Source of the DNA: the human T2T-CHM13v2.0 reference genome, Homo sapiens
Length of the DNA: 64,000 nt
Strand: one strand, 5' to 3'
Assembly: GCF_009914755.1 (NCBI RefSeq)
Contig: NC_060947.1
How positions within the stretch are numbered: position 1 is the stretch's first letter; the number at the start of each line of letters is the position of its first letter. This document shows, in pieces, positions 3,573 to 61,695 of the stretch. The notes under the pieces are model-generated. The model searched no databases and had not been told where the DNA came from. It saw nothing but the letters and a program-made list of their open reading frames with translations. The translations under genes and the position numbers were made by a program.

Positions 3573-3866
3573 AGCCTGTCGGAAAAGCGCAGTATTCGGG
3601 TGGGAGTGACCCGATTTTCCAGGTGCTGTCCGTCACCCCTTTCTTTGACTCGGAAAGGGAACTCCCTGACCCCTTGAGCTTCCCAAGTGAGGCACTGCCT
3701 CGCCCTGCTTTGGCTCGCGCATGGTGCGTCCACCCACTGACCTGTGCCCACTGTCTGGCACTCCCAAGTGAGATGAACCCAGTACCTCAGATGGAAATGC
3801 AGAAATCCCCTGTCTTCTGCGTCACTCATGCTGGGAGCTGTAGACATGAGCTGTTCCTATTCGGCC

Positions 3867-18724: not shown

Positions 18725-21109
<2,385 letters not shown>

Positions 21110-21621
21110 AATAGAGTAAGCAGGTCTAAAGTGTTCTTACCACCAAAGAAAGGTAAGCATAAGAGGTGATGGTTATGTTAATTAGTTTGATCATAGTGAT
21201 CATTTCACAATGAATACATATAAAACATTGTTGTACACCTTAAATATACATAATTTTTGTTTGCCGATTATACCTCAATAATTCTGGGAAAATATTTTTA
21301 AATACTCAGAGGTGATTATTTTATCAAAGTAAAATCTAATTTAATAAAATGTAATCACTTCCAATTATTAGTTTTGTTAAATTTTCTTTTTTTTTCTTTT
21401 TTTTTGTTTTTGTTTTTGTTTTATTAAAGTTTTAGGGTACATGTGCACATTGTGCAGGTTAGTTGCATATGTATATATGTGCCATGCTGGTGCGCTGCAC
21501 CCACCAACTCGTCATCTAGCATTAGGTATTTCTCCCAGTGCTATCCCTCCCCCCTCCCCCCACCCCACAACAGTCCCCAGAGTGTGATATTCTCCTTCCT
21601 GTGTCCATGTGATTTCATTGT

Positions 21622-25444
<3,823 letters not shown>

Positions 25445-25492
25445 TTATTTTGCTCTTTAGTTGATGCAGTTTCTTCGTAGTCTGGATGGTCT

Positions 25493-26510
25493 TTACATTT
25501 TGGCATGATTTTGCAGTGGCTGGTACCAGTTGTTCCTTTCCATGTTTAGTGCTTCCTTCAGGAGCTCTTTTAGGGCAGGCCTGGTGGTGACAAAATCTCT
25601 CAGCATTTGCTTATCTGTAAAGTATTTTATTTCTCCTTTGCTTATGAAGCTTAGTTTGGCTGGATATGAAATTCTGGGTTGAAAATTCTTTTCTTTAAGA
25701 ATGTTGAATATTGGCCCCCACTCTCTTCTGGCTTGTAGGGTTTCTGCCGAGAGATCCGCTGTTAGTCTGACGGGCTTCCCTTTGAGGGTAACCCGACCTT
25801 TCTCTCTGGCTGCCCTTAACATTTTTTCCCTCGTTTCAACTTTGGTGAATCTGACAATTATGTGTCTTGGAGTTGCTCTTCTCGAGGAGTATCTTTGTGG
25901 CATTCTCTGTATTTCCTGAATCTGAATGTTGGCCTGCCTGGCTAGATTGGGGAAGTTCTCCTGGATAATATCCTGCAGAGTGTTTTCCAACTTGGTTCCA
26001 TTTTCCCCATTGCTTTCAGGTACCCCAGTCAGACGTAGATTTGGTCTTTTCACATAGTCCCATATTTCTTGGAGGCTTTGCTCATTTCTTTTTATTCTTT
26101 TTTCTCTAAACTTCCCTTCTCACTTCATTTCATTCATTTCATCTTCCATTGCTGATACCCTTTCTTCCAGTTGATCGCATCGGCTCCTGAGGCTTCTGCA
26201 TTCTTCACGTAGTTCTTGAGCCTTGGTTTTCAGCTCCATCTGCTCCTTTAAGCACTTCTCTGTATTGGTTATTCTAGTTATACATTCTTCTAATTTTTTT
26301 TTCAAAGTTTTCCACTTCTTTGCCTTTGGTTTGAATGTCCTCCCATAGCTCAGAGTAATTTGATCGTCCGAAGCCTTCTTCTCTCAGCTCGTCAAAGTCA
26401 TTCTCCACCCAGCTTTGTTCCGTTGCTGGTGAGGAACTGTGTTCCTTTGGAGGAGGACAGGCGCTCTGCTTTTTAGAGTTTCCAGTTTTTCTGTTCTGTT
26501 TTTTCCTCAC
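25493..26510 (-). pseudogene. L1 ORF1p, disrupted
   Basis: Start codon is GTG, frameshift in A-run near 26300, TGA at 26120; C-terminus PLQNHAKM intact. Confidence 0.92.
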
Positions 26511-26958
26511 CTTTGTGGTTTTATCTACTTTTGGTCTTTGATGATGGTGATGTAGAGATGGGTTTTTGGTGTGGATGTCCTTTCTGTTTGTTAGTTTTCC
26601 TTCTAACAGACAGGACCCTCAGCTGCAGGTCTGTTGGAATACCCTGCCAAGTGAGGTGTCAGTGTGCCCCTGCTGGGGGGTGCCTCCCAGTTAGGCTGCT
26701 CGGGGGTCAGGGACCCACTTGAGGAGGCAGTCTGCCCGTTCTCAGATCTCCAGCTGCGTGCTGGGAGAACCACTGCTCTCTTCAAAGCTGTCAGACAGGG
26801 ACATTTAAGTCTGCAGAGGTTACTGCTGTCTTTTTGTTTGTCTGTGCCCTGCCCCCAGAGGTGGAGCCTACAGAGGCAGGCAGGCCTCCTTGAGCTGTGG
26901 TGGGCTCCACCCAGTTGGAGCTTCCCTGCTGCTTTGTTTACCTAAGCAAGCCTGGGCA

Positions 26959-27267
26959 ATGGCGGGCGCCCCTCCCCCAGCCTCGCTGCCGCCTTGCAGT
27001 TTGATCTCAGACTGCTGTGCTAGCAATCAGCGAGACTCCATGGGCGTAGGACCCTCCGAGCCAGGTGCGGGATATAATCTTGTGGTGTGCCGTTTTTCAA
27101 GCCTGTCGGAAAAGCGCAGTATTTGGGTGGGAGTGACCCGATTTTCCAGGTGCCGTCCGTCACCCCTTTCTTTGACTCGGAAAGGGAACTCCCTGACCCC
27201 TTGCGCTTCTCAAGTGAGGCACTGCCTCGCCCTGCTTTGGCTTGCGCACGGTGCATGCACCCACTGA
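26959..27267 (+). CDS. L1 antisense ORF0, open for 102 aa
   Basis: ATG in gcaATGg context; MAGAPPPASLPPCSLISDCCASNQRDS...; expression unknown. Confidence 0.62.
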   Translation: MAGAPPPASLPPCSLISDCCASNQRDSMGVGPSEPGAGYNLVVCRFSSLSEKRSIWVGVTRFSRCRPSPLSLTRKGNSLTPCASQVRHCLALLWLAHGACTH

Positions 27268-27388
27268 CCTGCGCCCACTGTCTGGCACTCCCTAGTGAGA
27301 TGAACCCGGTACCTCAGATGGAAATGCAGAAATCACCGTCTTCTGTGTCGCTCACGCTGGGAGCTGCAGACCGGAGCTGTTCCTATTC

Positions 27389-27399
27389 GGCCATCTTGG
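27389..27399 (-). promoter_or_regulatory. YY1 site of L1 internal promoter
   Basis: ggccatcttgg (sense CCAAGATGGCC) intact. Confidence 0.75.
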
Positions 27400-55537: not shown

Positions 55538-56336
55538 CCCCCCACTCACACTCCTTGGTGCTGCCCTAAATATTTTTTTTAAGGGTAAAAGAAAGGCTTC
55601 CTTTCCATGCTCAAACCACTTACATTCTAGGATCCTGTCTTCAGACTGACACGCCTTATTTCCTGGAACCTCAAAATTCTGGATGGCATTTAAATAGTGA
55701 AATTGAGGTCTCAGGATTGCGTCCATGCTCTTTTCAGTCAGCCAGTGGGTCTTTGAGAAGGATGTAGATGGGCAGGTAAATAGGTAGGGAGCAGGTAGGT
55801 GAGTAGATAAATAGATTACTTAGATACATAGAAAGACAGACAGACAGACTTCAAGAAGTTGTAAGTAAGAAGAGATAGCCAATATGAAATTATCTTAATT
55901 ATGTAAAAACCTATTTCTGTAATATTTTCTTCTGACAAATTAAGTAGCATTGGGTGATTTATGAAAAGATGTTTTCATATGCAGTGATTTCTTTGTTATA
56001 AAATAAATACCTTAGGTCTTTAAGCATTTGAAAGTTATTTGACACTAGAGTTCTGTATTTTTATGAGTATATACTTGTCAAAAACGAAAGCCTTCAATAG
56101 AGTGGAAATCAATTATTTGTATTTAGATTGTTTTCCTGAAATAAAATTTAACTTGGATTTCTGCTTTTTTGTTTGCCAAATCTAGCAGCCCTATGGTAAA
56201 ATGATAAGCTCAGTATGGGTAAACCCAGATAACTTCTAAGTGTCCTTTCAGCTGGGAACATCCACATTGCTGTTGCAGGACCAGCCTGGCAAGCAATATG
56301 CATATGTGGAATGGATACTAGTATACGCTTGGAAGG

Positions 56337-56510
56337 CAGTGGTTCTGAAACTTCACTCTTGAGAAACATTTAAAATATCAAATCTTGTGCAACACCCTAA
56401 GAAATTCTGATTCACCAGTTCTGGAGTAAGGCCACTGAAACTGCACCATTAACAGCAACTCAAGTAACTCTGATGCAAGTATTCAAAATCCTCATTTTGA
56501 AAAACACTGG
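56337..56510. mobile_element. MER5-like hAT-Charlie element
   Basis: cagtggttctgaaac...attctgattcaccagttctgg...tttgaaaaacactg termini. Confidence 0.65.
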
Positions 56511-57409
56511 ACTTTCTCTTACAAATAAATGCAGGAATCATGACTACCTGGATCAGAAAATTATATCATTATTCATTTATGACCATACTAAAATCTAAAT
56601 ACTGCTTGTCTAACCACGCAAAAGACCCACTCTGGACTACTCTGCCAACATTTTGTTGACTAAAATATATTTAATGCTAAATTGGTCATGAAATTGTTTT
56701 ACATTAATTTTTGTGAAAGTGGGAAAATTCAACTTAATCATATTCATATATACATAAAAGCACTGTAGAAAAAGACAATAAAATTTTCATTTAATAAAGA
56801 AAAATAACTTGTTGAATCTTATGCATGGAAATAATAGAATAAGCTTTTGATTAGAGGAGGAGTGTGAAGCACTTCTTCTGAGAGAAAAAGCTCATTATTT
56901 TAATACAAATCAACCTGCTATTAAGGCAAAACTCTAAAAGGTCAAAGAGCGCTATATAAAACCCATGCACTAAACTATTTTTCAGTGAAGATTCAGTATT
57001 CTCTAACAGCCATTTTCCCTCAATTTAATATTTAAATGTTCCCTCCTGTAATAGCAATTTAAAAAGGAGATTATGTCTAAAAGTTAACATTTAACTAATA
57101 ATCTCACTAGAGGGTATTCCTGCAAGCACAGCTAGTTAAACTTTGGTTGTTCATCAGACTAAAAGCCAGGTTGACTGATTTGGTGGGGGGCAGAAACTAG
57201 CTTTCAACTGACCTGATCATTAATAGTTTAAACGTACACAAATATTGTATATGGATAAATTCACACATTCAGATATCACTAGTAGGAAAAATTACTGTAA
57301 TTTTATTGTTTGTACGATTAAGGCAAAAACATGTTTTTGCTAGGAATTATCCCACTGTAAACAAATATTTGATTCTCTACACTTAATTACTCTTAAAAAC
57401 TGGATTTTA

Positions 57410-57448
57410 GATGAGGTCGGGCGCGTTCAGGGTGGTATGGACGTAAAA
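57410..57448 (-). pseudogene. 5S rRNA 5'-end fragment (about nt 1-39), antisense, part of a chimeric retrocopy
   Basis: gatgaggtcgggcgcgttcagggtggtatggacgta versus reverse complement of 5S GACGAGATCGGGCGCGTTCAGGGTGGTATGGCCGTA. Confidence 0.92.
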
Positions 57449-58413
57449 ATGGCATTCATGATGTCTGAAACAAGCCTAAATAGAATTCAAGATTAGACTA
57501 AATGATTTTCACAAGGTGCATTCAAGGTTTTACATTCCATGATTGGAAAAAAAAATTTTTTTGAAAACTTTTTATTTCACATTCTTTCCTGTAGGATTTT
57601 GCTACAAATGACTTTGGGAATGAATACAGTGGAATGGTAACTTTTCAGTGGTTCAGAATTGAATTAGACTACTTGTGATTGTGATGTTTGGTTTCCATTC
57701 AAATATATGAAGTGAGATGTCATATCCTGAATATAGTTTCTCTTCCCCAATTACTGATAGCATGTCTGTCAGCCAGTAAAGATTAAGAACAGAGTTTCTC
57801 TAAATTCCTCTGATTATTTCACTAAGGCACATTAAAATACTTAATTTTGGGAAACCAAATATCACAGATTTCTCCATGAAGTCCTAAATCTTCTTTAAAG
57901 TCAGAATAGGTATCTTAGTTACTGACAGTATTCAGGTTTTTTTCTCCCTTGGTGATGATATGTCATTCCATCAGTGAAAAAATATTTTTCTCCCGGGGTA
58001 AGAAAGGTATTCTTGTAATACATTACCATCAATCCTTAAACAGTAACAGTCTTGGCACTTATCATAAAACCGACCCATCTCTTATAACCAGAAAGATTAT
58101 CTTAGACTGTCCTTCACATTATACTTTACTTACTGCCTTGTAAGAATAAGAGTTGCTCACTGTGTTTATTTGCTGTCCTCCATATTCTCCACTGCATCAC
58201 TGGTGTATAATGTTAAGAGTTTCATTGAATATTATTTGAAGTATTACAAAAGACAGCTTGCTTCTTAATCTATGCATCTTTGGGGTTTTTGAAGAAGAAA
58301 TTTAATTCTTTGATGTAAAAAGGAACTGTTAAAAGAGTTGGAAACTCTGCACCTGTGTATATATACATTTTTAGCAATAAAGCAGCATGGACTGAGACTG
58401 CAAAAAAAAAAAA
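57449..58413 (+). pseudogene. Processed retrocopy of an unidentified mRNA 3'UTR (about 950 bp)
   Basis: AATAAA 58376-58381, A12 tail 58402-58413, 15-bp TSD aaaaactggatttta at 57395-57409 and 58409-58423, TT/AAAA endonuclease site. Confidence 0.85.
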
Positions 58414-58529
58414 CTGGATTTTAATATTATCAAAAGAAACTCAGGTGAATTGATTAGAAAATGCTGCAGCAGAATTTCTCATGTAACTTTTGTTTCTATC
58501 ATATGGGAGTGAAATCATTGAATTTAACA

Positions 58530-58760
58530 TAACAGACATCTGACTCTGGAGCCAGAATTATTGGGTTTAAATTCTGAATGTGCATCCTACTGCAACCTAC
58601 TGTGTTTCCGTGGAAACATACTCAGCTTCCCTTTGCCTCAATTTCTACCTCTCTATAATAGGATTAGAACCTTCCTTTTGGATTGCTCTGGGGATCAAAT
58701 GAAATTAAAATTATGTGGGTAATGTTCTTATAATATTTTCTGGTGCCTGCAAAGTATATA
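58530..58760 (+). repeat. MIR SINE
   Basis: gactctggagccaga...tttgcctcaatttctacctctctataatagga. Confidence 0.6.
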
Positions 58761-58973
58761 TAAGTTGGGGGGAAGGAAGGTCATTATTATTATGTTTCAG
58801 GTTTATGGCCTTTTCACACATAGCATGGTTGATGGCAAATCTTAAGTACTATTTTGTTCAGAGTTCATTCTAGGGGATCAAATAATCTCTGATACAGTAT
58901 GATTAATTCTCAGGTAAAAAGTATGACAGATGAAACTACAAAGCAGTCAGATCTTTCACCTTTTGATTATGTA

Positions 58974-59269
58974 CAGTCATGCATCACTTAACAACGTGGA
59001 TATGCTCTGGGAAATGCATCTTTAGGTGACTTTAGCACTGTGCAAACATCATAGAATGTACTTACACAAACCTAGATGGTATGTATAATATTATTTATAT
59101 ATTTTTAAATGGAAAACCAAACCTCTCAGCACCAATATTGACTGTCTACAATGCCAATACCAAGTACCATATATCAGGTTTCTACAAATGCTCCATGATA
59201 ATTTTATGGGATCACTGTAATATATTCAGTCCATCATTAACTAAAATGTCATTATGCGGTGCATTACTT
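58974..59269 (+). mobile_element. Tigger3-derived MITE
   Basis: ta|cagtcatgcatcacttaacaac...gtacttacacaaacctagatggtat...gtcattatgcggtgcattact. Confidence 0.8.
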
Positions 59270-59769
59270 TAATTAGTTTCCTGGCTGTCAGTACACTGTG
59301 TATGTATGTTAAGATAACTCTGAAGCATATTATCTCACAATGCTGAAGGTGGCACACCTTTGGAAGATAGAACCATTTCCTTCCCGGTGCCACTTGTAAG
59401 TCTAAACGCTCTTCTAGAACTCCAATCTGGTGTTGAGACAATTTGTTTTGTTTGTTCCTCCAGTCCAACCCTGTATGTTCACTTTGTGTTTCTTTACCTC
59501 TTAATTTCTCAAACTACCTGACTTTCATTGTTACCTAAAGTCCTAGAAATCTGACTTCTGTTTTGATTCAGTTCTGTGAGCTTTATGTTCAAACGTGTTC
59601 TTGCACACCCCCTTCCTCTGTTCTGCTCTTCCATTGATTCTGACTCAAATGGTATAACTTATACTCTGGAGCATTATACTTCTGAAAGAAACCACTATAA
59701 GGCCTTTCATGAGGTTTTGCATACACATCCACTTCCTGGAAGTTTCTGTGAGTCAGTACAGAGGTTTCA

Positions 59770-59862
59770 TGAGATGTCCTATTTATAACTGTGTCTCCCT
59801 GATTAATAACAGTACCTAGCACAAAATGCGTAAGAAATATTTGCTGAATGAATGAATGACTG
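59770..59862 (+). repeat. L2 3' end
   Basis: cagtacctagcaca...aaatatttgctgaatgaatgaatga. Confidence 0.65.
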
Positions 59863-61695
59863 CATAGAAAACAGTTGTTATCTTCATATATATATATATG
59901 TCCTTTATTTATGTTCTTCTTCTCTTTGTTGCCTGACTTTGTGCTTATATTTTTTTTAATTTTAGTGAACTGATTACCACTTAGTCCCTCCACTACTTAT
60001 GGTTCACTTAATGTTTTCTTTAATTCCAAAACCTTTTGCTACTTGATGTTATTAGCAAAACTGTTCATACCAAGAGGTACTATTGCTAGCCAGAAAGATT
60101 TCATCAACATCTCTAAAACTTGGTTTGCATGTAGACAATTAATATGCTAGGGAAACAATCAATACACAATCAATGTACTAGATTTTAATTTCAGTCCATG
60201 TCTTCTGTTTCCAGCCGAATTCATCATGACTCCTAGGGAGAGAATATTTATTCTAGAGGGCAATTCTATAATAAACAATTCCTACCTTTTTCTCAAATCT
60301 ATATTTGCCTATCAACCCAGAATGCAATAAACACTATCAGGTTAACAGTTGATCAATAATTTCAGGCAATGATGGGAAATGCCAATACAAAGAGCATAGA
60401 AGATGAACAAAGGCAGATTTGGGGCACACTGGGTGACATCCTAGAAGAAAGTAACTGAAACCTGCAGAGTAGTTAGGTGCTTTACATGATAGATTATTGA
60501 TGAGTCTCAGTTTGTATCTTGGGGAAAGAATGCCAAATAAATGTCACAAGGAGTCAAGACATTAATCCCATCTAATATGGAATCTCTAAAGTATTGTGGG
60601 AAATGACCTCCAATGAACAGGGGAAGCATCTGACACAGTCCGAACTTGATTTTCCAGAATATTCTGCAGTGGGCTTCTGGTGTTTGGCTTAGATGGCAGG
60701 TTTGGCCTGAGGGGAGAGATTTCCATTGACTATTCATAAGGCAGAATTGACCAGATATATTTATGCATCTAACATTTCCATGTGGGTTACCTATATTGCC
60801 AAACGTTTTTTTTTTTTTCAGAGTTCTTTTTTTTATAATCTAAATAGTTTAAAACATCTTTTGTAACTTTGATGTAACATTACATTCCCTTTTAGAAAGT
60901 GAAAATTGCTGCTCTCAAAATGAAAACAAATTTTAAATCAGAGAGCTTGAATTTAATGCAGGGGGCGGCGGATGGGGGAGAAGCCAAATATGTAAAGCAG
61001 TCTAGCAGCTGGCACTCATATTGGCAAAAGCTGTCTCTAAACATGTAAAGTGAAGAGAAATGCGGTGGTTTTTCAATAATTCCAGAAGTTTCACACCTTG
61101 TTTGTAATTATCTGAGCATTCAAACTAAACTGTATATTTGTCTCAATGACATAAAGAGTTAACTCAAACCTTCCCTTAACTTCATATAGAGAAAAGCAAA
61201 CCTTATCTATAGTACTATACATTGAGATGTTTAGAAAAATCTGGTTAATTGACTGCATTTTAAAATTTCTCATCCAGATGCTTAGCAACATGGGGCCAAA
61301 ACTAAGGTCAGTGAGACTATTTGCAACTTTTTTCCAAAGGACAGAGCAAATTGTTCCCAAAATATTTTGTGATGGAGAGAGAAATATGAGGTTGTCCCAG
61401 TCCAATACACTTAGAGTGTTAGGGTATTATTGGGCAGAAAGCTGCCTGAATATCCAGAGCCTAGACAAACTTGTAGAGATACAGCTAAGATCCTCTTCCT
61501 ATGATGTGAAATCACTACTGGCTACCTCTTTGTCAGCAAATATTAGTTCAGTTAGAAGGTCACATTTTGATAAAAAGATGACTTGAAAAATGAAAGAGGC
61601 ACTTAAAATGTCTCAAAAATTGCCTAAATTTTCAGTAATAAAGCAAAATAAAATGAAGACATAGCTGTTTAACTGTGAACTCTGACTTGGTAACG

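What the first reader, a model, noticed from the sequence alone, without database searches (positions are those of the whole stretch)
57395..58423. Second two-RNA chimera: antisense 5S rRNA 5' end capping an mRNA 3'UTR retrocopy
Seen: perfect 15-bp TSD at a TT/AAAA site, then about 39 nt of reverse-complement 5S rRNA running toward its 5' terminus, then about 950 bp of sense non-repeat sequence ending in AATAAA and poly(A). The TSD's last A is also the next 5S-complementary base. Established: U6-type chimeras have both parts in the same orientation, and tailless 5S fragments occur in primate genomes. Inference: the opposite orientation here points to second-strand priming on 5S rRNA (a ribosome-associated RNA) rather than template switching or RNA ligation.
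Basis: partly seen in the sequence, partly recalled or inferred. Interest (0 to 1): 0.8.

Follow-up and report, generated by a model that had tools for sequence, protein, structure and literature searches.

The report
Antisense 5S cap on lncRNA retrocopy
A retrocopy of the 3' end of a chromosome 15 non-coding RNA carries about 31 bases of backwards 5S rRNA at its front, probably because LINE-1 enzymes copied two different cell RNAs from the two ends of one DNA break, a mechanism already published for LINE-1 partners.

Summary

**What is there**
- A perfect 15-bp target-site duplication (TSD; 57395-57409 and 58409-58423) at a TTTTT/AA endonuclease site encloses two parts.
- Part 1 is antisense 5S rRNA, nt 40→9 (57409-57440; 29 of 31 match).
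- Part 2 is a sense, 5'-truncated, polyadenylated retrocopy (57440-58401).

**Corrections**
- The 5S piece is about 31 nt, not 39. ACGTAAAA (57441-57448) belongs to the parent.
- The parent (chr15, 96.4% identical, no 5S nearby) lies between CHP1 and OIP5. It is therefore probably the lncRNA OIP5-AS1/Cyrano, not an mRNA 3'UTR.

**Mechanism**
- In a census of 71 short genomic 5S 5' fragments, 61 of the 70 examined are tailless 5S retropseudogenes.
- In one pattern's 51 loci, every break falls at 5S nt 38-44 (hairpin loop C, nt 35-40, and its 3' flank), usually behind a T run. The junction here looks the same.
- Seven of the 70 are antisense-5S chimeras: four with L1, one Alu-like, two with unique RNAs (this one and one on chr2).

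**Novelty**
The kind is already in print: Doucet 2015 for snRNAs, and Law 2026 with 27 antisense 5S/LINE-1 chimeras. Only the non-LINE-1 partner is new.

The parts
57390..57394 (.). 5' flank CTCTT. With the first A's of the TSD it gives bottom-strand TTTTT/AAGAG, the first endonuclease-type nick site.
   Evidence: Sequence read. The motif TT/AAAA is named as the LINE-1 endonuclease motif in PMC13174262 (passages).
57395..57409 (+). 5' copy of the 15-bp target-site duplication AAAAACTGGATTTTA. Its 3' end (TTTT or TTTTA) is the inferred top-strand primer.
   Evidence: the repeat finder family D4, 100% identity.
57409..57440 (-). 5S rRNA fragment, nt 40/39 -> 9, antisense on the + strand. A57409 is shared with the TSD and G57440 is shared with the retrocopy.
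   Evidence: Ungapped alignment to the chr1-array 5S gene in L006: 29 of 31 matches, mismatches at 57412 and 57416. 5S positions and structure come from the Rfam alignment.
57440..58401 (+). 5'-truncated retrocopy of the 3' end of a chr15 transcript (G000:C15:39111742-39112691, +), probably the terminal exon of the lncRNA OIP5-AS1/Cyrano.
   Evidence: Genome search at 95% identity. Alignment of 948 positions with 34 substitutions and 8 gaps gives 96.4% identity and K2P 0.037. The parent has no poly(A) or TSD. The parent lies between a CHP1 exon and an OIP5 Yippee-Mis18 exon.
58376..58381 (+). AATAAA polyadenylation signal, about 20 nt before the tail. It is also present in the parent.
58402..58408 (+). 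Remnant poly(A) tail: 7 A, running on into the 5 A of the 3' TSD.
   Evidence: The parent reads CTGAAATC at this point.
58409..58423 (+). 3' copy of the target-site duplication. It is followed by ATATTA, so the top strand reads GGATTTT/AATATT (or TTTTA/AT), the second nick site.

Best explanation
This is one LINE-1-mediated insertion made by heterologous twin priming.

1. ORF2p endonuclease nicked the bottom strand at TTTTT/AAGAG. The T-run 3' end primed reverse transcription on the poly(A) tail of an OIP5-AS1 (Cyrano) lncRNA.
2. The top strand was nicked 14-15 bp downstream at GGATTTT/AATATT. That T-ended 3' OH primed a second reverse transcription, internally on a 5S rRNA at U40-A42, at the 3' edge of hairpin loop C. 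Synthesis ran toward the 5S 5' end.
3. The two cDNAs met and were joined at 57440. The strict overlap is 1 nt. There is also an imperfect 6-of-10 patch between the 5S 5'-terminal cDNA and the lncRNA cDNA. Joining lost the last 8 nt of the 5S cDNA and everything 5' of the lncRNA junction.
4. Fill-in produced the 15-bp TSD.

Shown: the anatomy, the parent without 5S, the recurrence of the 5S nt-40 priming junction, and the recurrence of antisense-5S chimeras.

Inferred: that both parts entered in one event, the order of the two nicks (both sites fit the endonuclease motif, so either could have been first), and that the 5S cDNA originally reached nt 1.
For: 1. A single perfect 15-bp TSD encloses both parts, and endonuclease-type sites sit on both strands.
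2. The parent locus lacks the 5S piece. No 5S-like sequence beyond chance 9-13-nt matches (E>=1) exists in about 50 kb spanning the CHP1-OIP5 interval. The junction in the parent is not preceded by AG, so it is not a splice acceptor.
3. A pattern excluding intact 5S at nt 50-52 gave 58 hits against 0 for the control. Five look full-length. The other 53 represent 51 independent loci after collapsing three chr17 copies.
   - All 51 break at 5S nt 38-44, although breaks up to nt 49 were detectable.
   - 36 of the 51 break at nt 40 or 42.
   - In 32 of those 36 the adjoining outside base is T, usually a run. I counted this by eye from the listing.
   - This locus (TTTT, then A40) is one of the ten nt-40 cases.
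4. Rfam's consensus structure puts nt 35-40 in hairpin loop C and nt 1-9 in helix I.
5. In the tailless copies the T-run junction is the priming junction. In the clearest cases the matching TSD copy directly follows 5S nt 1, for example L052, L053, L061, L064 and L069.
6. I examined the 5S-5' side in 70 of 71 independent short 5S fragments.
   - 61 are tailless with a TSD (two of them weak).
   - 2 are antisense 5S plus a unique sense sequence ending A-rich within one TSD: this locus and C2:116673599-116673762, with TSD AAATGATAAGTAC and a parent on chr9 at 93%.
   - 4 are antisense 5S plus sense L1.
   - 1 is antisense 5S plus a sense Alu-sized repeat.
   - 2 are unresolved.
   - All 7 resolved partners are in sense orientation, with their 5' end facing the 5S 5' end.
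7. Published precedent.
   - Law et al. 2026 (PMC13174262, passages): 27 5S/LINE-1 chimeras, typically antisense and truncated. 20 have TSDs and 14 have endonuclease motifs, insertion timing was inferred from multi-species alignments, and twin priming was proposed.
   - Their Table S2 lists entries at chr1:234.30 Mb (5S:8-45) and chr2:33.23 Mb. These probably correspond to my L095 and L097. The match rests on similar coordinates and 5S range only.
   - Doucet et al. 2015 (PMC4476161, passages): inverted, 3'-truncated U5, U1 and U2 chimeras, truncated in a loop and complementary to the target, explained by top-strand twin priming.
Against: - No outgroup genome could be consulted, so co-insertion is inferred from the TSD and from recurrence, not observed.
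- Complementarity between primer and 5S is minimal: A:U40, a possible T.G41 wobble, and T:A42.
- The internal junction has only 1 nt of strict microhomology. The 6-of-10 patch would arise by chance at about 2% of positions (my binomial estimate; one search gives the 6/10).
- The 5S piece lacks nt 1-8, whereas tailless copies almost always reach nt 1. An extra trimming step therefore has to be assumed.
Confidence: 0.75

Rival explanations
1. Two sequential insertions. A tailless 5S(1-40) retropseudogene first inserted at this site and created the 15-bp TSD. Later the OIP5-AS1 retrocopy inserted at the boundary between 5S nt 1 and the right-hand TSD copy. That second nick would be at bottom-strand TTTTT/GT, and the event would delete 5S nt 1-8 and make no TSD of its own.
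For: - Tailless 5S(1-40) insertions with exactly such TSDs are common: 61 of 70 examined fragments, and 555 in human per PMC5322556 (passages).
- The A-run at the start of the right TSD copy would offer a T-run primer for a second event.
- The missing 5S nt 1-8 would be a small target deletion.
Against: - It requires a second insertion at one specific nucleotide boundary, at a poorer endonuclease site (T/G rather than T/A), with a target deletion instead of a TSD.
- The same coincidence would have to recur at the chr2 locus and at the L1 and Alu-like chimeras. All 7 resolved partners are sense and lie at the 5S 5' side.
- Law et al. infer, from multi-species alignments, that the 5S and LINE-1 parts of such chimeras were inserted at the same time.
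Confidence: 0.12
2. Filler capture. The retrocopy's 5' end was attached by end joining, and a stray 5S cDNA or DNA fragment was captured between the target DNA and the retrocopy cDNA in a random orientation.
For: The internal junction has little microhomology (1 nt strict), as end joining would give. The fragment is short, at 31 nt.
Against: - Random capture does not predict that the fragment starts at the 5S nt-40 hotspot directly behind the target's T run.
- It does not predict the consistent antisense orientation with the 5S 5' end facing the partner in 7 of 7 resolved chimeras.
Confidence: 0.08
3. Template switching or RNA ligation of the U6 type. The reverse transcriptase jumped from the lncRNA to a 5S RNA, or a ligated 5S-lncRNA chimeric RNA was copied.
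For: These are the established routes for U6/LINE-1 chimeras (PMC13174262 and PMC4476161, passages; PMC6789731, seen in search listings only).
Against: Both routes place the two RNAs in the same orientation (stated, Figure 7 legend). Here they are opposed. An antisense 5S transcript would have to be assumed.
Confidence: 0.02
4. The 5S piece was already in the source transcript, through a parent gene or isoform that contains it.
For: None found.
Against: - The parent genomic sequence runs straight through the junction without 5S.
- No 5S-like stretch occurs in about 50 kb spanning the gene interval.
- The junction is not at an AG acceptor.
Confidence: 0.02

Closest known systems
Antisense 5S rRNA/LINE-1 chimeric insertions (Law et al., Cell Genomics 2026, PMC13174262; preprint 10.1101/2025.02.02.635956)
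   Same: The 5S fragment is truncated in the loop C region, antisense to the polyadenylated partner, with its 5' end at the junction. One TSD pair and an endonuclease motif are present, and twin priming is proposed. Two of the L1 chimeras in my census probably appear in their Table S2.
   Different: Their partner is by design always LINE-1, because the pipeline looks only 5' of LINE-1 fragments. Here the partner is a retrocopy of a cellular lncRNA, so neither template is L1 RNA. OIP5-AS1 occurs 0 times in their four held supplementary tables. Here the 5S part stops at nt 9, not nt 1-2.
Inverted snRNA/L1 chimeras by twin priming (Doucet et al., Mol Biol Evol 2015, PMC4476161)
   Same: A 3'-truncated small RNA lies in inverse orientation, truncated in a single-stranded loop, complementary to the target at the junction. 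The endonuclease consensus is read in the partner's orientation, and recruitment is at the top-strand nick. One of their U5 cases is joined to a unique 'unknown sequence'.
   Different: The small RNA there is U5, U1, U2 or U6, not 5S. The partner is mostly L1.
Tailless 5S rRNA retropseudogenes (Noll et al., Genome Biol Evol 2015, PMC5322556; Schmitz et al. 2004 as cited there)
   Same: Same internal priming site on 5S (nt 38-44 in my census), no A tail, and a T-rich target end abutting the truncation point. They report 555 human copies with hotspots in loops and favour internal priming.
   Different: A tailless copy stands alone between its own TSDs and reaches 5S nt 1. Here the 5S cDNA is joined head-to-head to a second cDNA, and the TSD encloses both.
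[quoted passage not shown]
   Same: Two reverse transcriptions start from the two ends of one staggered break and join internally, giving an inverted 5' segment inside one TSD pair.
   Different: Classically both primers use the same L1 RNA. Here they use two unrelated cellular RNAs.
U6/LINE-1 chimeras by template switch or RtcB ligation
   Same: A bipartite small-RNA plus poly(A)-RNA insertion within one TSD.
   Different: In U6 chimeras both parts are in the same orientation and U6 is full length. Here the parts are opposed and the small RNA is truncated.

Membership tests
LINE-1-mediated processed retrocopy (target-primed reverse transcription) | Flanking target-site duplication of about 7-20 bp | tested here: met
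   Perfect 15-bp repeat at 57395-57409 and 58409-58423.
LINE-1-mediated processed retrocopy (target-primed reverse transcription) | Insertion at an endonuclease motif (TT/AAAA on the sense strand) | tested here: met
   CTCTT|AAAAA at the 5' edge. The motif is as named in PMC13174262.
LINE-1-mediated processed retrocopy (target-primed reverse transcription) | 3' poly(A) after a polyadenylation signal, absent from the source locus | tested here: met
   AATAAA at 58376-58381 and an A run at 58402-58413. The chr15 locus continues CTGAAATC without an A run.
LINE-1-mediated processed retrocopy (target-primed reverse transcription) | Loss of introns relative to the source gene | not testable with these tools
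   The copy is colinear with one genomic stretch, so it covers only a terminal exon. No transcript annotation was available.
Heterologous twin-priming chimera (Doucet 2015; Law 2026) | Small RNA 3'-truncated and antisense to the polyadenylated partner, with its 5' end facing the partner | tested here: met
   5S nt 40->9 antisense, followed by the sense retrocopy.
Heterologous twin-priming chimera (Doucet 2015; Law 2026) | Truncation point in a single-stranded loop, with complementarity to the target end | tested here: met
   nt 40 lies in hairpin loop C (nt 35-40) by the Rfam consensus. A57409 is shared by the TSD and 5S. Complementarity is only 1-3 nt.
Heterologous twin-priming chimera (Doucet 2015; Law 2026) | Both parts inserted at the same time (empty site in outgroups, no intermediate) | not testable with these tools
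   No primate outgroup genomes are held. Co-insertion is inferred from the single TSD and from recurrence.
Heterologous twin-priming chimera (Doucet 2015; Law 2026) | Partner is a LINE-1 3' segment | tested here: not met
   The partner matches a unique chr15 locus, not L1. This is the point of difference from the published catalogues.
Tailless 5S retropseudogene | 3' truncation at a hotspot, no A tail, T-rich target end at the truncation | tested here: met
   The break is at nt 40 behind TTTT. All 51 independent loci break at nt 38-44.
Tailless 5S retropseudogene | 5'-complete 5S fragment directly flanked by its own TSD pair | tested here: not met
   The 5S part ends at nt 9 and is followed by about 960 nt of retrocopy before the second TSD copy.
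U6-type template-switch or ligation chimera | Both RNAs in the same transcriptional orientation | tested here: not met
   The orientations are opposite.

The most novel reading that the evidence does not exclude
Twin priming needs no LINE-1 RNA. At a single staggered break, both T-ended nicks were extended on host RNAs supplied in trans: a polyadenylated lncRNA on one strand, and 5S rRNA at the 3' edge of loop C on the other. The second-strand nick of a trans-mobilisation event would then be a free primer that samples abundant structured RNAs at the same landing sites that give tailless retropseudogenes. In that case a measurable share of processed pseudogenes should carry short inverted caps of 5S, tRNA or snRNA. 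Here 2 of 70 examined short 5S fragments have unique-sequence partners and 5 have L1 or Alu-like partners.
Probability: 0.6. Interest if true: 0.4.

Novelty: new member of a known kind. Interest (0 to 1): 0.3.

Why it matters
Inverted small-RNA caps are a direct footprint of what the LINE-1 reverse transcriptase does at the second-strand nick, the least understood step of retrotransposition.

Published catalogues record such caps only next to LINE-1. This locus, and the chr2 one, show the same footprint on retrocopies of ordinary cellular RNAs. The two priming events are then not tied to the L1 RNA that encoded the enzyme.

The shared 5S start point (nt 38-44) in stand-alone tailless copies and in chimeras links two described phenomena to one priming reaction.

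For annotation, it explains a 31-nt 5S-like fragment on chrX and corrects the parent to a lncRNA. It is a tidy example rather than a surprise.

Tried and rejected
- **Rfam on the region.** A scan of 56000-60000 at E<=10 and of the whole window at gathering score found no 5S. The fragment is too short, so I aligned it directly to a genomic 5S gene instead.
- **Rfam on the parent.** A scan of the parent neighbourhood found nothing that names the parent.
- **Finding a coding exon.** Stop-to-stop ORFs in the 10 kb upstream of the parent showed no coding exon. I scanned ORFs of 58 aa or more from L015, L012 and L011 against Pfam (44 of the 202 non-Alu ORFs of 30 aa or more). Only a CHP1 EF-hand exon, 27 kb upstream, was found.
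- **CHP1 3'UTR as parent.** Rejected on distance, and on the lncRNA known to lie between Chp1 and Oip5 (PMC8184514, passage).
- **Parent carries 5S.** Rejected.
- **Earlier findings of this scan.** These were closed.
- **Longer pattern.** I replaced it with two 35-place patterns.
- **Wider flanks.** The TSDs of the four L1 chimeras and the Alu-like one therefore stayed unchecked, and one locus (C23:128081082) was not examined.
- **Stalling at helix I.** I considered that the reverse transcriptase stalled at 5S helix I (nt 1-9). I rejected this as a general cause, because tailless copies nearly always reach nt 1.
- **Relative age.** Dating the two parts against each other is uninformative: 2 of 31 mismatches in the 5S piece against 3.6% in the retrocopy.
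Full report
**1. What is in the sequence**

Reading 57200-58600 and searching for repeats confirm a perfect 15-bp direct repeat, AAAAACTGGATTTTA, at 57395-57409 and 58409-58423.
- The left flank ends CTCTT, so the bottom strand reads TTTTT/AAGAG.
- The right flank begins ATATTA, so the top strand reads GGATTTT/AATATT (or TTTTA/AT).
- Both fit the LINE-1 endonuclease motif, given as TT/AAAA in PMC13174262 (passages).
- Just before the 3' repeat lie AATAAA (58376-58381) and a 12-A run, five A of which belong to the repeat.

**2. The 5S piece**

Rfam did not report a 5S match here even at E<=10. I therefore took a 5S gene from the genome's own chr1 array (family RF00001, 47 scored matches; locus L006) and aligned it directly.
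- Window 57410-57440 is the reverse complement of 5S nt 39->9, with 29 of 31 matches. There is a 22-nt exact run, and the mismatches are at 57412 and 57416.
- The 22-mer has 478 genome matches at <=2 mismatches against 0 for the reversed control. The match is not chance.

**3. The parent, and a correction to the 5S length**

A search of the window's own genome with 57449-58401 found the following.
- The window itself.
- A 95% match on chr15 (C15:39111751-39112691, +).
- Two shorter copies, at C11:125824968-125825504 (-) and C7:137763369-137763481 (+). Both end in A/T runs.

The chr15 locus has no A run after the cleavage site and no flanking repeat, so it is the source.

It reads ...GTGACAAATGACGTAAAAATGGCATTC. 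The window's GACGTAAAAA (57440-57449) is therefore parent sequence. Positions 57441-57448 match the parent 8 of 8 and antisense 5S 5 of 8. The demonstrable 5S piece is 31-32 nt (nt 40/39->9), not about 39 nt reaching the terminus.

Retrocopy and parent align over 948 positions with 34 substitutions (26 transitions, 8 transversions) and 8 gaps. That gives 96.4% identity and K2P 0.037. With a recalled primate neutral rate of about 1e-9 per site per year, the age is very roughly 15-30 million years.

**4. Identity of the parent**

No coding frame appears in the 10 kb upstream.
- An ORF at L015:2841-3089 (about 27 kb upstream, + strand) matched EF-hand below Pfam's curated cutoffs (22.9 and 21 bits against 30 and 25.4). 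Its CHP1 identity rests on 45 of 45 residues identical to human CHP1 in PDB 2e30.
- An ORF at L014:3822-3986 (about 13 kb downstream, - strand) is a Yippee/Mis18 exon with E=5.8e-10. I take this to be OIP5, on the domain match and on position.
- The lncRNA OIP5-AS1/Cyrano is described as lying between Chp1 and Oip5, antisense to OIP5 with overlapping last exons (PMC8184514 and PMC8582974, passages).

The parent is therefore most likely the terminal exon of OIP5-AS1, not an mRNA 3'UTR. This is an inference from position, because no transcript annotation was available.

A BLAST of 5S against about 50 kb spanning this interval gave only 9-13-nt chance matches (E>=1). The junction in the parent is not preceded by AG.

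**5. A census of short 5S 5' fragments**

I wanted to know what an antisense 5S piece starting at nt 40 behind a T run means. I searched the genome with two 35-place patterns that exclude intact 5S by three 'not the canonical base' letters.

*Pattern 1* has the negative letters at nt 43-41 and the core at nt 30->9. It gave 39 hits against 0 for the control.
- I examined 38 of the 39 hits. The unfetched one has a 35-mer identical to a fetched chrX hit.
- After collapsing three chr17 copies, a three-unit chr22 tandem and the chrX pair, 34 independent loci remain.
- Four of the 34 extend to about nt 90. The other 30 are short.

*Pattern 2* has the negative letters at nt 52-50 and the core at nt 39->18. 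It gave 58 hits against 0 for the control.
- Five look full-length. The other 53 represent 51 independent loci.
- By eye from the listing, the breaks fall as follows:

| 5S break position | Loci |
|---|---|
| nt 44 | 1 |
| nt 43 | 7 |
| nt 42 | 26 |
| nt 41 | 3 |
| nt 40 | 10 |
| nt 39 | 3 |
| nt 38 | 1 |

- No break falls at nt 45-49, although those were detectable.
- In 32 of the 36 loci that break at nt 40 or 42, the adjoining outside base is T, usually in a run.
- Rfam's consensus structure places nt 35-40 in hairpin loop C.

**6. What those fragments are**

The union of the two patterns is 71 independent short fragments. I examined the side beyond the 5S 5' end in 70 of them. C23:128081082 was not fetched.

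| Class | Loci (of 70) | Notes |
|---|---|---|
| Antisense 5S about 40->1 flanked by a TSD whose T-rich end abuts the truncation | 61 | Two TSDs are weak (L059, L068) |
| Antisense 5S + unique sense sequence | 2 | This locus and the chr2 locus below |
| Antisense 5S + sense L1 | 4 | L086, L087, L095, L097 |
| Antisense 5S + sense Alu-sized repeat | 1 | L105; called Alu from recall only |
| Unresolved | 2 | L077, L089 |

- The 61 are the 'tailless retropseudogenes' of Noll et al. 2015 (PMC5322556, abstract and passages). That paper reports 555 human 5S copies, hotspots in loops, and favours internal priming.
- The L1 flanks match the window's own L1 at 21370-27087. Pfam confirms that element by ORF1, endonuclease and reverse-transcriptase domains.
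- The L105 flank matches three repeats of about 300-580 bp in the window.
- The chr2 locus, C2:116673599-116673762 (-), has TSD AAATGATAAGTAC and antisense 5S 40->3. It then has 107 nt at 93% identity to C9:131570334-131570440, and ends in an A-rich stretch.
- All seven resolved chimeras have the partner in sense orientation with its 5' end facing the 5S 5' end.
- I did not check TSDs for the five repeat-partner cases.

**7. Mechanism**

In the tailless copies the T-run/5S junction is where target-primed reverse transcription began. In this locus the same junction sits on the top strand, and the poly(A)/TSD junction sits on the bottom strand. Both ends of the insertion are therefore priming junctions, and the only 'joining' junction is internal, at 57440.

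That is the anatomy of twin priming, with two different RNAs as templates.

The internal junction has 1 nt of strict overlap. The 5S 5'-terminal cDNA and the lncRNA sequence agree at 6 of 10 positions there. By my binomial estimate that would occur at about 2% of positions, so it is only suggestive.

Tailless copies almost always reach nt 1. The 5S cDNA here probably did too, and lost its last 8 nt in the joining.

Both nick sites fit the motif, so their order cannot be told.

**8. Rivals**

- *Sequential insertion.* A tailless 5S came first, and the retrocopy later landed exactly at the 5S-nt-1/TSD boundary with an 8-bp deletion and no TSD. This is possible but needs a precise coincidence, and it would have to recur at the chr2 locus and in the L1 chimeras. 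Law et al. infer from multi-species alignments that the 5S and LINE-1 parts were inserted at the same time.
- *Random filler capture.* This does not predict the nt-40 start behind the T run, nor the constant orientation.
- *Template switching or RNA ligation.* These give same-orientation chimeras (Figure 7 legend).
- *A parent that already carries 5S.* Excluded at the genomic level.

**9. Comparison with what is known**

- Doucet et al. 2015 (PMC4476161, passages) described inverted, 3'-truncated U5, U1, U2 and U6 chimeras. These are truncated in a loop and complementary to the target, and the authors proposed top-strand twin priming. One U5 case is joined to a unique sequence.
- Law et al. 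2026 (PMC13174262 and its preprint, passages; supplementary tables searched) catalogued 27 5S/LINE-1 chimeras. These are typically antisense and truncated, with the 5S start at the junction. Twenty have TSDs and 14 have endonuclease motifs, and the authors propose twin priming.
- Their Table S2 has entries at hg38 chr1:234.30 Mb (5S:8-45) and chr2:33.23 Mb. These probably correspond to my L095 and L097. The match rests on similar coordinates only and was not verified.
- Their pipeline looks only 5' of LINE-1, and OIP5-AS1 is absent from the four supplementary tables held.
- Searches for 'twin priming' with 'processed pseudogenes' and '5S rRNA' (4 papers hold all three terms, 2 listed), and for 'twin priming', 'chimeric', 'pseudogene' and 'tailless' (42 papers hold at least three of the four terms, 15 listed), turned up no description of an antisense 5S cap on a non-LINE retrocopy. 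The library covers open-access papers only.

**10. Verdict**

What is new is modest.
- The polyadenylated partner is a cellular lncRNA retrocopy, so both templates acted in trans.
- A second such locus exists on chr2.
- The chimeras share the nt 38-44 priming site with stand-alone tailless 5S copies.

Interest is about 0.3. I class it as a new member of a known kind.

Noticed in passing
window 19337-19628: Window 19337-19623 matches window 27099-27398 and 3630-3865 at 71-73% identity. The first of these adjoins the 5' end of the minus-strand L1 at 21370-27087, so the stretch looks like antisense L1 5'UTR. It abuts the annotated 5' end of the SET pseudogene SETP8 at 19628. This is probably the 'first two-RNA chimera' that the finding's title alludes to, and possibly another twin-priming product. 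I did not look for a TSD.
   Followed up: partly
G000:C2:116673599-116673762 (-), locus L062: A second unique-sequence chimera. It has TSD AAATGATAAGTAC and antisense 5S nt 40->3. It then carries 107 nt at 93% identity to C9:131570334-131570440 (-), ending AATAAAG plus an A-rich stretch. In the chr9 source the match ends right before GTACTG, so the end may be an exon boundary or an internally primed A-rich site.
   Followed up: partly
G000:C22:36777185-36777325 (-), locus L079: A tailless 5S(39->1) insertion, together with its 14-nt target duplication, is repeated head to tail at least three times with a 53-bp period. A retropseudogene plus its TSD has become a small tandem array.
   Followed up: no
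G000:C11:125824968-125825504 (-) and G000:C7:137763369-137763481 (+), loci L003 and L004: Two more 5'-truncated, A-tailed retrocopies of the same chr15 3' end, at 91% and 95% identity. The source RNA was evidently retrocopied repeatedly.
   Followed up: partly
G000:C17:46419334, C17:47367008, C17:65774339 (loci L053-L055): One tailless 5S insertion (TSD TTGAAGGACTATTTT) is present in three copies with identical flanks over the 120 nt shown. It sits inside a chr17 segmental duplication.
   Followed up: no
G000:C14:43285769-43285848 (-), locus L116: A tailless 5S fragment in which the last about 21 nt of the 5S 5' end (antisense) occur twice in tandem before the TSD. This may reflect slippage or a second short priming.
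   Followed up: no
G000:C11:10987854-10987933 (+) and G000:C16:14833769-14834000 (+), loci L089 and L077: Two short antisense 5S fragments with no recognisable TSD in the 28-45 nt beyond the 5S 5' end. They are possible further chimeras.
   Followed up: no
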